Below, piece after piece: positions 11,996-14,526 of a stretch of 35,013 nt of DNA. The stretch is from IMG/VR virus record IMGVR_UViG_2579778606_000008, one strand, 5' to 3'. Numbering within the stretch: the first letter of the stretch is position 1; each line of letters starts with the position of its first letter. The position numbers were made by a program, and so were the translations under genes. The notes under the pieces were generated by a model. The model had not been told where the DNA came from. It saw only the letters and a program-made list of their open reading frames with translations, and did no database searches. This DNA is from a virus (taxonomy: Duplodnaviria; Heunggongvirae; Uroviricota; Caudoviricetes).

Positions 11996-12361
11996 ATGGC
12001 ACTGACGAAAAAACAACGTGCAGAATTGCGCATGAAGTTTGGCGGTCGCTGTGCTTATTGCGGCTGTGAACTTGGCGAAAAGTGGCATGCAGACCATGTA
12101 AAACCGGTCATTCGTTTTAATGGAAATATGCTTCACCAGGAACGTGACGATATATCCAACATGGTTCCGGCATGCCACCCATGCAATCTGCACAAGCATT
12201 GCAGTAGCCTGGAAGACTATCGGCGAATTATCAGTGATGGTCGTCGTGAATTCCTTGCGTCCGGGAAAGGCAAAGCGCTGGTTCGTATGGGATTGGTTGA
12301 AATGAAATCTGACCCGGTTGTGTTCTGGTTTGAAAAATATCAAGAAGGGGCTACAGCATGA
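11996..12361 (+). CDS. HNH endonuclease
   Basis: 121 aa; CxxC, HADHVKPV and NMVPACHPCNLHKH motifs typical of HNH nucleases. Confidence 0.75.
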   Translation: MALTKKQRAELRMKFGGRCAYCGCELGEKWHADHVKPVIRFNGNMLHQERDDISNMVPACHPCNLHKHCSSLEDYRRIISDGRREFLASGKGKALVRMGLVEMKSDPVVFWFEKYQEGATA

Positions 12362-13344
12362 CCACTATTACCAATAAGAAACAGTATCCCAGCGAGCAAT
12401 ATCTTAATGAGCTTATCACCAACATAGAGTTTGCTGCAAGGGCACCAGTTGAAGTCGTGAGCGCAATGGCAGCAGAGCTACAGAAGCGGCGCGAAGCTGA
12501 TAGCGCAGAACCAGTTGCTTATATTTTCAAACATCCGGCCGGGAAATTATTCTGGGCTTTAACGGATGAAAGCAATAAAGAGCAAGCGGACGTTATTCCT
12601 GTTTATGCCGCCCCTCCAGTGCCAGTAGTATCTGAAGAAAAACCAATGCCTAACCCTCTTAAAATGTACGCGGTCGATGATGTTGCCGCTATTGCAGAGG
12701 TGAGAGGCTGGAATGCCTACCGCGCCGCCATGCTTCAGAGTCAGGGGGAAGGCAACCCTCATGTAACCCCGGCTCGCCTGCCTGGTGGTTTCACCATTGA
12801 GGATGCGAAGGTGTTACATGAAGACCTTGTACGTAGCCACATAAGCCAGGCTTTAAGTGGCGAAAAGATGAAAAAGAAAGATCGCGATGCTGATTTGCGC
12901 TGGATTCATGGCGTAATAGTTCAGGCCGCGTGGTTTGTAAAGGCATCACTGGAGCAGAATGCACTATCGGGCAACTCTCCGGTAATTCCTGGTGAGGTGT
13001 TGTCCGCAATCCGGGAGGTTGCCAGGATTCGCGCCGATTTCGATGATTTTGACGGTGACAGGCGAGGTATCGGTGATTGTCTGGATGAGGCCGAGCAAGA
13101 GCTTATCGTTACCATTAACAAATATGCCAGTCAGTTGGCAGTAGAGCCGGTAGTACCTGATGACGTTCTGGAACAGACAGTAGCGTCGCCAGCGCTAGGT
13201 AACCAGGTTAGCGAATTAACAATGTGGGTTAAACGACTGGTCAGTCAACTGAAAAAAGCTCAGCCGGACTGCAAATTACCGGAGAAGGCGATGGATTACC
13301 TGAAACGAAATGGACTGATAAGCGTGGAGGATGTTTTACGATGA
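12358..13344 (+). CDS. Hypothetical protein
   Basis: 328-aa ORF overlapping the HNH stop; N-terminal module shared with the 11587 ORF. Confidence 0.5.
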   Translation: MTTITNKKQYPSEQYLNELITNIEFAARAPVEVVSAMAAELQKRREADSAEPVAYIFKHPAGKLFWALTDESNKEQADVIPVYAAPPVPVVSEEKPMPNPLKMYAVDDVAAIAEVRGWNAYRAAMLQSQGEGNPHVTPARLPGGFTIEDAKVLHEDLVRSHISQALSGEKMKKKDRDADLRWIHGVIVQAAWFVKASLEQNALSGNSPVIPGEVLSAIREVARIRADFDDFDGDRRGIGDCLDEAEQELIVTINKYASQLAVEPVVPDDVLEQTVASPALGNQVSELTMWVKRLVSQLKKAQPDCKLPEKAMDYLKRNGLISVEDVLR

Positions 13345-13464: not shown

Positions 13465-13644
13465 ATGAAAAACGCATTGCAGTTTTTGTTTGTTGCGTTC
13501 TGGTTGTTCGCATCATGTATGCCCATCATCTTCACAGCAAGGTATATGGAAAAAATTGATGTTTTGATATTAATGTTTGGACATATAAATGCCCTTTTTT
13601 TAGGGGTGTTCATGGCGGTCATGTGCATTGAATACTGGCGGTAA
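13465..13644 (+). CDS. Small hydrophobic (two-TM) protein
   Basis: 59 aa from ATG at 13465 with GGGGG RBS; AT-rich locus flanked by imperfect direct repeats. Confidence 0.4.
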   Translation: MKNALQFLFVAFWLFASCMPIIFTARYMEKIDVLILMFGHINALFLGVFMAVMCIEYWR

Positions 13645-13689
13645 ATACAGCGAACGCCATTGGTTTAGTTGGATATTTACTGTGCCGGA

Positions 13690-13902
13690 CAAAAACGGTT
13701 TGCGGGGAAATCTTAGTTAAGTAGAATAACTGCGGGTGCTTGAGGCTATCTGTCTCAGGCATGAACACCAAAAGGCAGATAGAGAAAAGCCCCAGTTAAC
13801 ATTACGCGTCCTGCAAGACGCTTAACATTAATCTGAGGCCATATCTATGCGACACATAGAGATTAGCCTCTTACGGACCGAAAGGTCAAGGAGAAGCAGG
13901 CT
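13690..13902. promoter_or_regulatory. hok leader region (expected site of the mok-like leader ORF and Sok antisense RNA)
   Basis: 20-codon leader ORF (13847..13906) whose stop overlaps the hok ATG; a Sok RNA was not delineated, so boundaries are not resolved. Confidence 0.35.
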
Positions 13903-14058
13903 ATGAAGCAGCAAAAGGCGATGTTAATCGCCCTGATCGTCATCTGTTTAACCGTCATAGTGACGGCACTGGTAACGAGGAAAGACCTCTGCGAGGTACG
14001 AATCCGAACCGGCCAGACGGAGGTCGCTGTCTTCACAGCTTACGAACCTGAGGAGTAA
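13903..14058 (+). CDS. hokD: Hok/Gef-family type I toxin (HokD/RelF-like), 51 aa
   Basis: Translation MKQQKAMLIALIVICLTVIVTALVTRKDLCEVRIRTGQTEVAVFTAYEPEE matches HokD/RelF as I recall it; below the ORF-track length cutoff; GGAG RBS. Confidence 0.9.
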   Translation: MKQQKAMLIALIVICLTVIVTALVTRKDLCEVRIRTGQTEVAVFTAYEPEE

Positions 14059-14126
14059 GAGACCCGGCGGGGGAGAAATCCCTCGCCACCTCTGATGTGG
14101 CAGGCATCCTCAACGCACCCGCACTT

Positions 14127-14157
14127 AACCCGCTTCGGCGGGTTTTTGTTTTTATTT
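14127..14157 (+). terminator. Intrinsic terminator after hok
   Basis: Hairpin AACCCGC-TTCG-GCGGGTT followed by TTTTGTTTTTATTTT. Confidence 0.6.
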
Positions 14158-14166
14158 TCAACGCAT

Positions 14167-14196
14167 TTGAAGTTCTGGACGGTGCCGGAATAGAAT
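14167..14196 (+). promoter_or_regulatory. Candidate sigma70 promoter (TTGAAG, 18-bp spacer, TAGAAT)
   Basis: Hexamers read directly from the sequence, upstream of the 14275 ORF and just after the hok terminator. Confidence 0.35.
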
Positions 14197-14274
14197 CAAA
14201 AATACTTAAGTAGCGCGCAGGGATAAGAGGGATGGTCCCTTAAAGGGGAGAGCTAATTATCCGGAAGGATTCTG

Positions 14275-14526
14275 ATGATGAACATCGAAGAACTGCGTAA
14301 AATTTTTTGTGAAGATGGCCTCTATGCTGTGTGCGTTGAAAATGGAAATATTGTTAGCCATTACCGCATTGTGTGTTTGCAAAAAAATGGGGCTGCGTTA
14401 ATTAATTTTGTGGATGCCCGAGTGACGGACGGATTTATCTTGCACGACGGTGAGTTTGTCACTTCATTACAGGCATTGAAAGAGATCGGAATAAAAGCTG
14501 GCTTTTCTGCTTTTTCAGAAGAATAA
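14275..14526 (+). CDS. Hypothetical small protein (in the position of Qin rem)
   Basis: 83-aa ORF between hok and the ydfU-like gene. Confidence 0.5.
   Translation: MMNIEELRKIFCEDGLYAVCVENGNIVSHYRIVCLQKNGAALINFVDARVTDGFILHDGEFVTSLQALKEIGIKAGFSAFSEE

What the first reader, a model, noticed from the sequence alone, without database searches (positions are those of the whole stretch)
13690..14160. HokD/RelF-type type I toxin locus missed by the ORF track
A 51-aa ORF (13903..14058) translates to what I recall as the HokD/RelF toxin. It is preceded by a 20-codon leader ORF whose stop overlaps the hok start (ATGA) and followed by a strong terminator. No relBE genes lie upstream as in E. coli K-12; a small two-TM ORF does instead. 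Whether a Sok-like antisense RNA and the fold-back elements are intact decides whether this is an active toxin-antitoxin module or a silenced relic.
Basis: partly seen in the sequence, partly recalled or inferred. Interest (0 to 1): 0.5.

Follow-up and report, generated by a model that had tools for sequence, protein, structure and literature searches.

The report
Intact hokD/sok toxin-antitoxin locus in prophage
This is the well-known hokD (relF) membrane-toxin gene, here with its full antisense-RNA control region inside a lambda-like prophage of E. coli; that is the usual wild form of a locus that is truncated in the K-12 laboratory strain, so it is ordinary.

Summary
Window 13903..14058 (+) encodes a 51-aa peptide whose DNA is identical to E. 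coli K-12 hokD. It matches Pfam HOK_GEF (82.9 bits), and RefSeq annotates it as hokD in the best-matching E. coli genomes.

K-12 keeps homology only from the hok Shine-Dalgarno onward, because relBE is fused upstream. The window carries the whole roughly 450-bp hok/sok module:
- the hok promoter
- the 5' tac element, pairing with the 3' fbi element (probability 0.99)
- the ucb/mok-SD and mok-SD/dcb alternative pairings, and a metastable 5' hairpin
- a short mok leader
- a convergent Sok promoter, with a roughly 70-nt antisense hairpin RNA
- a 3' protective hairpin and a terminator

The Rfam "sok" model matches full length (106.7 bits) and is absent from K-12 Qin. [quoted passage not shown]

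Small variations:
- mok is 19 codons and ends in a UGA overlapping the hok AUG. This occurs in 12 of 81 related loci; most have an in-frame 70-codon mok.
- The Sok-recognition loop is the shortest seen and lacks a U-turn motif.

Verdict: an already known system, structurally intact and probably functional. Activity itself is untested.

The parts
13700..13727 (+). hok promoter: -35 TTGCGG (13700-13705), 16-nt spacer, -10 TAGAAT (13722-13727). Predicted transcription start is about 13734.
   Evidence: Read from the sequence. GTTAAGTAGAAT is conserved in Sp5 hokW and phage Evi, and differs by one base (GTTAAGTAGGAT) in PPompW. The Rfam model starts at 13734. The simple promoter scan did not list it, because the -35 matches only 3 of 6.
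13734..14148 (+). Full-length hok (mok-hok) mRNA, about 415 nt.
   Evidence: MFE -168.9 kcal/mol with z = -7.9 against shuffles, closed by 5'-3' pairing. Conservation profile of 68 unique loci.
13734..13745 (+). tac (translational activator element): GGGUGCUUGAGG at the mRNA 5' end.
   Evidence: It pairs with fbi at probability 0.99 in the full-length RNA. After 3' truncation it switches to the 5' hairpin or to ucb. The element is near-invariant in relatives.
13736..13762 (+). Metastable 5' hairpin of the nascent transcript (13736-13746 pairs with 13752-13762).
   Evidence: The 32-nt nascent RNA folds at -16.9 kcal/mol. The hairpin appears in the RNAalifold consensus of 24 alleles.
13787..13795 (+). 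ucb (upstream complementary box, the anti-SD of mok): AAGCCCCAG.
   Evidence: It pairs with the mok-SD region 13833-13839 at probability 0.85 in the full-length RNA. It pairs with tac in 5' fragments and truncated RNA, and this is the outer stem of the Rfam model.
13835..13838 (+). mok Shine-Dalgarno sequence GAGG.
   Evidence: It lies 8 nt upstream of ATG 13847. It is homologous to the GAGG mok SD of R1, whose mutation abolishes toxicity (PMC9841398).
13847..13906 (+). mok leader ORF: 19 codons (MRHIEISLLRTERSRRSRL), with stop UGA overlapping the hok AUG (AUGA).
   Evidence: The same allele occurs in 12 of 81 related loci, while 66 of 81 have a 57-nt in-frame 70-codon mok.
13835..13870 (+). 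Sok-target hairpin: mok SD (GAGGC) pairs with dcb (GCCUC), the inner stem UCUAUG/CAUAGA contains the mok AUG, and the loop is CGACA (13850-13854).
   Evidence: Folds at -12.9 kcal/mol. The same architecture is seen in all but two of the 18 distinct alleles folded (L033 and L068 are predicted to fold differently), with a variable loop. It coincides with the variability hot spot at 13840-13859.
13783..13853 (-). Predicted Sok antisense RNA, about 70 nt. It has a 5' single-stranded tail complementary to the mok AUG and loop, a long hairpin (13839 to 13790) and the tail CUUUUCUCU.
   Evidence: Folds at -32.2 kcal/mol with z = -5.6. Its ends are inferred from the promoter position and from homology to sokW, and were not measured.
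13860..13889 (-). Sok promoter on the minus strand: -35 TTGACC (13889 to 13884), 18-nt spacer, -10 TAATCT (13865 to 13860).
   Evidence: It sits at the position homologous to the sokW -10 TAACCT. That hexamer is changed to GAGCCG by the 'pro-less' primer YO-421 in PMC8621323 (alignment). The consensus scan did not flag it, because the -10 matches only 3 of 6.
13866..13897 (+). hok-SD hairpin: GCCUCUU (13866-13872, dcb/anti-SD) pairs with AAGGAG..GC, where the hok SD AAGGAG is 13888-13893. The hairpin lies inside mok.
   Evidence: RNAalifold consensus pairs are kept in 23-24 of 24 alleles.
13903..14058 (+). hokD coding sequence, 51 aa.
14066..14087 (+). 3' UTR hairpin GGCGGGGGA-GAAA-UCCCUCGCC, the probable 3' end protector of the processed (truncated) mRNA.
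   Evidence: It is present in the MFE and centroid folds. The role is inferred by analogy to the last stem-loop of Tr-hok in R1 (PMC9841398).
14108..14120 (+). fbi (fold-back inhibitory element): CCUCAACGCACCC.
   Evidence: It forms 12 base pairs with one bulge to tac. It was also found as inverted repeat I5.
14127..14154 (+). Intrinsic terminator of the hok mRNA.

Best explanation
The region is a complete hok/sok-family type I toxin-antitoxin module, the hokD allele. It is carried as cargo in the nin region of a lambdoid prophage, between the replication genes and rem-DUF968-rusA-Q, on the same strand as the early-right operon.

The proposed mechanism is inferred from conserved anatomy together with experiments on R1 hok/sok and Sp5 hokW-sokW.
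1. A weak constitutive promoter makes a roughly 415-nt mRNA. Its 5' end (tac) is first trapped in a metastable hairpin and then pairs with the 3' fbi element.
2. In this closed form, ucb sequesters the mok SD, so the RNA is neither translated nor bound by Sok.
3. Slow 3' trimming back to the 14066-14087 hairpin removes fbi. tac then pairs with ucb, and the mok SD/dcb target hairpin forms.
4. The abundant, unstable roughly 70-nt Sok RNA is made from the convergent promoter inside mok. Sok binds the mok initiation region and the duplex is degraded.
5. If Sok falls, ribosomes translate the 19-codon mok. This can happen on loss of the element, on transcription shut-off or on prophage induction. 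Translation melts the hok-SD hairpin and terminates on the UGA that overlaps the hok AUG. HokD is then made, inserts into the inner membrane and depolarises or kills the cell.

Shown here: identity of the gene, presence and complementarity of every element, and conservation across relatives. Inferred: transcript ends, processing, Sok expression and in vivo activity.
For: - Gene identity: the DNA is identical to K-12 hokD, matches Pfam HOK_GEF at 82.9 bits, and is annotated hokD in all 25 best E. coli records listed.
- Leader: Rfam RF01794 matches full length at 106.7 bits on the hok-sense strand and ends at the hok AUG. The same model hits an R1-type plasmid locus and Sp5 hokW but not K-12 Qin.
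- Structure: tac-fbi pairing probability is 0.99 and ucb-mok SD is 0.85 in the full-length RNA. After removal of 40 nt or more from the 3' end, tac shifts to the 5' hairpin or to ucb. The nascent 32-mer forms the metastable hairpin.
- Conservation: the hok-SD hairpin and the ucb/SD hairpin are kept in 24 alleles, with three compensatory pairs.
- Sok: the predicted RNA folds as a tail plus hairpin plus U-rich end, z = -5.6. Its -10 lies at the position of the experimentally inactivated sokW -10.
- Functional precedent: the module is 90.7% identical to VT2-Sakai/Sp5 hokW-sokW. That locus is toxic, is neutralised by sokW and is induced on prophage induction (PMC8621323).
- mok: translation is needed only as far as the hok SD/start (PMC9841398), so the 19-codon mok meets the known requirement.
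- Selection: regulatory elements are near-invariant (entropy 0.0-0.25), while the flanks reach above 1.
- Prophage context.
Against: - No expression data exist for this locus.
- Chromosomal hok loci tested earlier (hokA, hokB, hokC) did not mediate post-segregational killing and were judged inactive (cited in bioRxiv 10.1101/2025.08.07.668861).
- The Sok and hok promoters are weak matches to consensus and were not found by the simple scan.
- The Sok-target loop of this allele (CGACA) is the shortest seen and lacks the YUNR U-turn motif present in R1-type, hokW and several other alleles. My own recollection, not checked here, is that this motif speeds Sok binding.
- The thermodynamic predictions show a shift rather than a clean switch. 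mok SD accessibility hardly rises in the truncated models.
- HokD has a Tyr where other Hok peptides have a C-terminal Cys, so full toxicity may depend on TadA editing.
Confidence: 0.85

Rival explanations
1. The locus is a structurally complete but physiologically silent passenger. The module is conserved because it spreads with phage mosaics, but HokD is never produced at toxic levels. Tight fold-back, the short mok, the missing U-turn or the missing second cysteine could each contribute.
For: Earlier work judged the chromosomal hokA, hokB and hokC loci unable to mediate post-segregational killing. The 19-codon out-of-frame mok is a minority allele, found in 12 of 81 loci. The target loop lacks YUNR. 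The coding DNA is nearly invariant even at synonymous sites, which fits recent spread as well as it fits selection.
Against: Every regulatory element is retained with near-zero variability, whereas the flanks are unrelated. The 90.7%-identical hokW-sokW locus is active and affects phage release (PMC8621323). Single substitutions in tac, ucb, the mok SD or the 3' hairpin readily inactivate R1 hok (PMC9841398), so a relic would be expected to carry such changes, and none is evident in the alignments. The window allele occurs at 99% identity or more in 1217 E. coli records.
Confidence: 0.2
2. The module is active, but its main role is not prophage maintenance. It could be a lysis-timing helper expressed on induction, as proposed for hokW-sokW. 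It could also be an abortive-infection defence that fires when a superinfecting phage shuts off host transcription and Sok decays.
For: In Sp5, sokW disappears and HokW accumulates after mitomycin C in a RecA-dependent way, and deletion halves phage release. R1 hok/sok reduces T4 plating (cited). Here hok lies in the early-right operon orientation, so read-through from pR would run against the Sok promoter (inference).
Against: Nothing in the sequence discriminates between these roles. hokW sits in a different part of the Sp5 genome. No enrichment of hok next to defence systems was found.
Confidence: 0.4
3. The Rfam 'sok' hit marks a sense-strand small RNA gene, and the 51-aa ORF is incidental.
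For: The RF01794 match is on the + strand.
Against: The model also matches the hok-sense strand of the R1-type and Sp5 loci and ends exactly at the hok AUG. It therefore describes the hok mRNA leader. The ORF is a full-length, above-threshold HOK_GEF member identical to HokD.
Confidence: 0.01

Closest known systems
E. coli K-12 hokD (relF, b1562) in cryptic prophage Qin
   Same: DNA differs at one base from the hok SD (window 13889) through hok, the 3' UTR, fbi, the terminator and the start of rem. The downstream neighbours are the same: rem, a DUF968/ydfU-like gene and Q.
   Different: K-12 has relB-relE fused upstream and lacks the hok promoter, tac, ucb, mok, the Sok target and the Sok promoter. 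It gives no Rfam sok hit. The window has them all. Only 2 of 80 IMG/VR loci encoding an identical HokD have the K-12 relBE arrangement.
hokW-sokW of Stx2 prophage Sp5 / VT2-Sakai (E. coli O157:H7)
   Same: 90.7% DNA identity over 93% of the module. The element order is the same, including the extended hairpin in the Sok region. The HokW peptide is 51 aa and differs only near the C terminus. It also lives in a lambdoid prophage and has been shown to be a type I TA (PMC8621323).
   Different: mokW is a 70-codon in-frame extension of hokW, with 57 nt between the two ATGs. Here the distance is 56 nt, giving a 19-codon ORF that stops on the hok AUG. The target loop is CUGAACA with a U-turn motif, against CGACA here. 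The Sok promoter is TTGCCT-17-TAACCT, against TTGACC-18-TAATCT here. The position in the phage genome is different.
hok/sok of plasmid R1 (parB), the paradigm of the family
   Same: All named elements are present: tac, fbi, ucb, dcb, mok, sokT, a convergent Sok promoter inside mok, the metastable 5' hairpin and the 3' hairpin (element definitions from PMC9841398). Hok is 45% identical to HokD.
   Different: R1 is carried on a plasmid rather than a prophage. Its mok is 70 codons and out of frame, running far into hok. The window has about 20 extra nucleotides in the Sok hairpin and lacks about 15 nt of the R1 5' leader.

Membership tests
Hok/Gef toxin family (Pfam PF01848) | A peptide of about 50 aa with an N-terminal transmembrane helix and the conserved C-terminal Hok domain, scoring above the curated threshold. 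| tested here: met
   HOK_GEF scores 82.9 bits against a cut-off of 22, covering model positions 1-42 of 42. The hydropathy peak lies at residues 5-25. The DNA is identical to K-12 hokD. The NCBIfam Hok and HokA HMMs score below their cut-offs, at 48.5 versus 73 and 40.2 versus 89.
[quoted passage not shown] | Long-range 5' tac to 3' fbi pairing that closes the full-length mRNA. | tested here: met
   12 bp plus one bulge between 13734-13745 and 14108-14120, with pairing probability 0.99 and MFE z = -7.9. Both elements are almost invariant, so no covariation test was possible.
[quoted passage not shown] | Alternative pairings: ucb with the mok SD (closed form), tac with ucb and the mok SD with dcb (open form), plus a metastable 5' hairpin. 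| tested here: met
   ucb-SD pairing is 0.85 in the full-length RNA. The tac-ucb stem forms in 5' fragments and reaches up to 0.76 in truncated RNA. The nascent hairpin folds at -16.9 kcal/mol and the SD/dcb hairpin at -12.9 kcal/mol. These are thermodynamic predictions only.
[quoted passage not shown] | A mok leader ORF with its own SD, translated at least up to the hok SD/start, with the hok SD sequestered in a hairpin. | tested here: met
   GAGG lies 8 nt before ATG 13847. The ORF covers the hok-SD hairpin and stops at 13904-13906. Its length of 19 codons differs from the usual 70. The functional requirement is taken from PMC9841398.
[quoted passage not shown] | A cis-encoded antisense Sok RNA gene with a promoter inside mok, a 5' tail complementary to the mok initiation region, and a terminator hairpin. 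| tested here: inconclusive
   Sequence homology to the experimentally defined sokW promoter, and a stable tail-plus-hairpin fold, support it. The hexamers match consensus weakly, and transcription was not and cannot be measured here.
[quoted passage not shown] | A YUNR U-turn motif in the Sok-target loop.
   The loop CGACA has no YUNR. The motif is present in R1-type, hokW and several other alleles, and absent also from the commonest allele, CUCUACACA. It is a kinetic enhancer rather than a family-defining feature.
[quoted passage not shown] | 3' exonucleolytic processing to a translatable truncated mRNA, RNase III cleavage of the Sok duplex, and toxicity with its neutralisation. | not testable with these tools
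   A protective 3' hairpin (14066-14087) exists upstream of fbi. Function is known only for the relatives R1 and hokW (PMC9841398, PMC8621323).
Rfam RF01794 'sok' | A score above the gathering threshold of 59 bits. | tested here: met
   106.7 bits, E = 2e-24, model positions 1-157 of 157, at 13734-13905 on the + strand. As matched here, the model is sense to hok.

The most novel reading that the evidence does not exclude
The segment around the mok AUG (13840-13859) is the one hypervariable patch in an otherwise almost invariant module, and it is the site where the 5' end of Sok first contacts the mRNA. It could act as an address label that keeps the several hok/sok copies carried by co-resident prophages from cross-regulating. 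On this reading, the window allele is a distinct, functional coupling design: a 5-nt loop without a U-turn, and a 19-codon mok that terminates on the hok AUG.
Probability: 0.25. Interest if true: 0.35.

Novelty: already known. Interest (0 to 1): 0.15.

Why it matters
It matters little beyond correct annotation. It shows that the textbook K-12 hokD, with relBE upstream and no Sok, is the rearranged exception. The common wild-type hokD is a complete hok/sok module riding in lambdoid prophages, and there it probably influences prophage retention or lysis, as the closely related hokW-sokW does. The natural variation in mok frame (56, 57 or 58 nt) agrees with the experimental conclusion that only the act of translating mok up to the hok start matters. 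The variable Sok-contact loop is a small, testable lead on specificity among co-resident type I systems.

Tried and rejected
- Covariation test of tac-fbi: not possible, because both elements are almost invariant in the 68 unique relatives. Only the ucb/SD hairpin gave compensatory pairs.
- Simple sigma-70 scan: it found neither the hok nor the Sok promoter. Both were placed by homology and by the published sokW mutations instead.
- NCBIfam HMMs for Hok and HokA: both below their cut-offs.
- Sub-threshold Rfam hits in the 3' UTR and leader (isrK at 25 bits versus 50, rsmX, ceN48): treated as chance or as terminator similarity.
- Imperfect 11-nt direct repeats flanking the module (13679/14179 and 13714/14203): considered as insertion scars. 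About four such pairs per kb are expected by chance (my own estimate), so they were dropped.
- The upstream 59-aa hydrophobic ORF: searched in Pfam, NCBIfam, PHROGs and 5.8 billion proteins. Only unnamed E. coli/Shigella homologues turned up.
- Clean switch in mok-SD accessibility on 3' truncation: equilibrium folding gave only a partial shift.
- My recalled R1 mok frame: the R1-type IncFII plasmid I fetched has an in-frame mok. R1 proper is out of frame, according to the numbering in PMC9841398.

Full report
**Observation**

Window 13903..14058 (+) is a 51-aa ORF, MKQQKAMLIALIVICLTVIVTALVTRKDLCEVRIRTGQTEVAVFTAYEPEE. It scores 82.9 bits on Pfam HOK_GEF against a cut-off of 22, and E = 2.8e-33 on PHROG 251 'MokW-like host killing'.

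A megablast of 13690-14160 against 5,426 complete E. coli genomes finds matches in 4,938 of them. Of the matching records, 1,217 are at 99% identity or more. In all 25 records listed the feature under the match is 'hokD: type I toxin-antitoxin system toxin HokD'.

- The leader ORF runs ATG 13847 to TGA 13904-13906, which is 19 sense codons, with the stop overlapping the hok ATG.
- The terminator is at 14127-14144, followed by a T run.
- relB and relE are not in the window.
- A 59-aa ORF with two hydrophobic segments lies upstream at 13466..13644.

**Comparison with K-12**

I aligned the window to MG1655 Qin. The two sequences differ at one base from window 13889 (the hok Shine-Dalgarno) through hok, the 3' UTR, the terminator and into rem. 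Upstream of 13889 they are unrelated, because K-12 has relE-relB there.

The Rfam family RF01794 ('sok') matches the window full length at 13734-13905 on the + strand, with 106.7 bits and E = 2e-24. The same model hits an R1-type IncFII plasmid locus (87.2 bits) and the Sp5-type hokW locus (113.5 bits), but nothing in K-12 Qin. In all three hits the match is on the hok-sense strand. In the window and the plasmid locus it ends at the hok AUG, and in the Sp5-type locus three bases beyond it. Despite its name, then, the model describes the hok mRNA leader, within which sok is encoded on the opposite strand.

The K-12 arrangement is the exception. Among 80 IMG/VR viral contigs encoding an identical HokD, only two have relBE upstream.

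**Anatomy**

Element names follow the R1 literature as summarised in PMC9841398.
- **hok promoter:** TTGCGG (13700-05), 16-nt spacer, TAGAAT (13722-27), with the transcript start near 13734.
- **tac and fbi:** tac GGGUGCUUGAGG (13734-45) pairs with fbi CCUCAACGCACCC (14108-20). In the full-length 415-nt RNA this pairing has probability 0.99. The MFE is -168.9 kcal/mol, z = -7.9.
- **ucb:** in the same closed fold, ucb (13787-95) pairs with the mok-SD region (13833-39) at probability 0.85.
- **After 3' truncation:** removing 40 nt or more from the 3' end abolishes tac-fbi. tac then partitions between the 5' metastable hairpin (13736-62; -16.9 kcal/mol in the nascent 32-mer) and a tac-ucb stem.
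- **Target hairpin:** the mok SD GAGGC pairs with dcb GCCUC (13866-70) in a hairpin that carries the mok AUG in its upper stem and CGACA as its loop.
- **hok-SD hairpin:** GCCUCUU (13866-72) also pairs with the hok SD AAGGAG (13888-93). This hairpin is kept in 23-24 of 24 aligned alleles, which explains why hok needs mok translation.
- **3' protector:** a 9-bp hairpin at 14066-87 lies just upstream of fbi, where a protector of the processed 3' end is expected.

On the minus strand, TTGACC (13889 to 13884), 18 nt, TAATCT (13865 to 13860) lies at the position of the sokW promoter. The sokW -10, TAACCT, was inactivated by the substitutions encoded in primer YO-421 of PMC8621323. A transcript starting near 13853 would have three parts (-32.2 kcal/mol, z = -5.6):
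- a tail of about 13 nt complementary to the mok AUG and the loop;
- a long hairpin;
- a CUUUUCUCU end.

Transcript ends are inferred, not measured.

**Relatives**

In the phage collection the module is 88-96% identical to loci in many lambdoid and Stx phages. These are variously annotated 'host killer protein', 'MokW', 'gef' and 'RelF'. It is 90.7% identical to VT2-Sakai/Sp5, whose hokW-sokW locus is a demonstrated type I TA (PMC8621323):
- HokW is toxic, and sokW expressed from its own promoter neutralises it.
- RNase III and Hfq contribute to the neutralisation.
- After mitomycin C, sokW disappears and HokW accumulates in the membrane in a RecA-dependent way.
- Deleting the locus halves phage release.

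**What is slightly unusual**

1. **The mok frame varies.** In 66 of 81 related loci the mok ATG lies 57 nt before the hok ATG. mok is then an in-frame 70-codon extension of hok, and it is annotated that way in Stx2a_WGPS9. In the window and 11 other loci the distance is 56 nt, which gives the 19-codon ORF ending in AUGA. An in-frame TAG at 13864-66 excludes an extended Hok. In R1 proper the distance is 58 nt by the numbering of PMC9841398. In an IncFII plasmid encoding the identical R1 Hok it is 57.

   PMC9841398 concludes that mok must be translated up to the hok SD but not beyond the hok start. The window's short mok satisfies this known requirement, and stop-start overlap is a classical coupling arrangement (established knowledge).

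2. **One patch is hypervariable.** Across 68 unique relatives the module is almost invariant, with column entropy of 0.0-0.25. The exception is 13840-13859, at 0.65-0.8. This is the loop and upper stem of the Sok-target hairpin, the site facing the 5' end of Sok.

   Loops differ by allele: CGACA here, CUGAACA in hokW, and CUAGACA and CUCUACACA elsewhere. The window's loop is the shortest and has no YUNR U-turn motif. Two prophages from one genome carry different alleles. This may tune specificity or binding kinetics, but I did not test that.

**Context**

The window is 98.4% identical, over its first 17 kb, to a prophage next to potC/potD in E. coli EBJ003. It begins with the integrase gene and runs through the following regions:
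- xis, exo and dicB;
- the repressor and cro genes;
- replication genes;
- a set of small nin-type genes;
- the hok module;
- rem, DUF968, rusA and Q;
- lysis genes, terminase, portal, capsid and tail genes.

hok points the same way as the early-right operon. Read-through on induction would therefore collide with the Sok promoter. This could explain the loss of sokW seen in Sp5, but it is inference.

**Verdict**

[quoted passage not shown] It is already known and annotated, and it is close to an experimentally characterised prophage system. In vivo activity remains to be shown.

The main caveats:
- Earlier reports found tested chromosomal hok loci inactive in post-segregational killing.
- The promoters are weak matches to consensus.
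- The target loop of this allele lacks a U-turn motif.
- Toxicity may depend on Tyr-to-Cys RNA editing.

Noticed in passing
window 13840-13859 (the loop itself is 13850-13854): This is the only hypervariable patch inside the otherwise near-invariant hok module. It forms the loop and upper stem of the Sok-target hairpin just after the mok AUG. The loop sequence and length differ by allele, and the window's CGACA is the shortest and lacks the YUNR U-turn motif. Two prophages of one genome (L045, L062) carry different alleles. The patch may act as a specificity label for Sok.
   Followed up: partly
window 13847-13906; L003 1656-1868; L086 394-609: The mok reading frame is not conserved. The distance from the mok ATG to the hok ATG is 56 nt here (19 codons, with UGA overlapping the hok AUG). 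It is 57 nt and in frame in most prophage loci and in an IncFII plasmid encoding the R1 Hok peptide. It is 58 nt in R1 proper, according to published numbering.
   Followed up: yes
window 14041-14044: The hokD Tyr47 codon UAC is followed by G (UACG) and flanked by CAG/CUG. HokD toxicity may therefore depend on editing.
   Followed up: no
window 13466-13644 (+): A 59-aa ORF with a GGGGGA Shine-Dalgarno and two hydrophobic segments. It has only unnamed E. coli/Shigella homologues and no Pfam, NCBIfam or PHROG family. It sits at the same distance upstream of hok in 15 of 80 IMG/VR loci, and PGAP did not annotate it in the near-identical EBJ003 prophage.
   Followed up: partly
window 13734-13905; L003 1544-1718; L086 282-453: Rfam RF01794, named 'sok antitoxin', matches the strand that is sense to hok. 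It ends at the hok AUG in the window and L086, and three bases past it in L003. It therefore models the hok mRNA leader rather than the antisense RNA, so strand calls from this family should be read with care.
   Followed up: yes
window 14167-14196 (+): A promoter-like site, TTGAAG-18-TAGAAT, lies directly after the hok terminator and upstream of rem (14275-14526). It was the only site reported by the consensus scan in 13500-14350.
   Followed up: no
window 13679-13689 / 14179-14189 and 13714-13724 / 14203-14213: Two imperfect 11-nt direct repeats bracket the hok module in the same order. About four such pairs per kb are expected by chance (my estimate), so this is probably not an insertion scar.
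   Followed up: partly
window 12358-13344 (+): A 328-aa ORF upstream of the module matches several different PHROGs of unknown function in separate segments, which suggests a mosaic protein. In the EBJ003 record only its C-terminal 204 codons are annotated.
   Followed up: no
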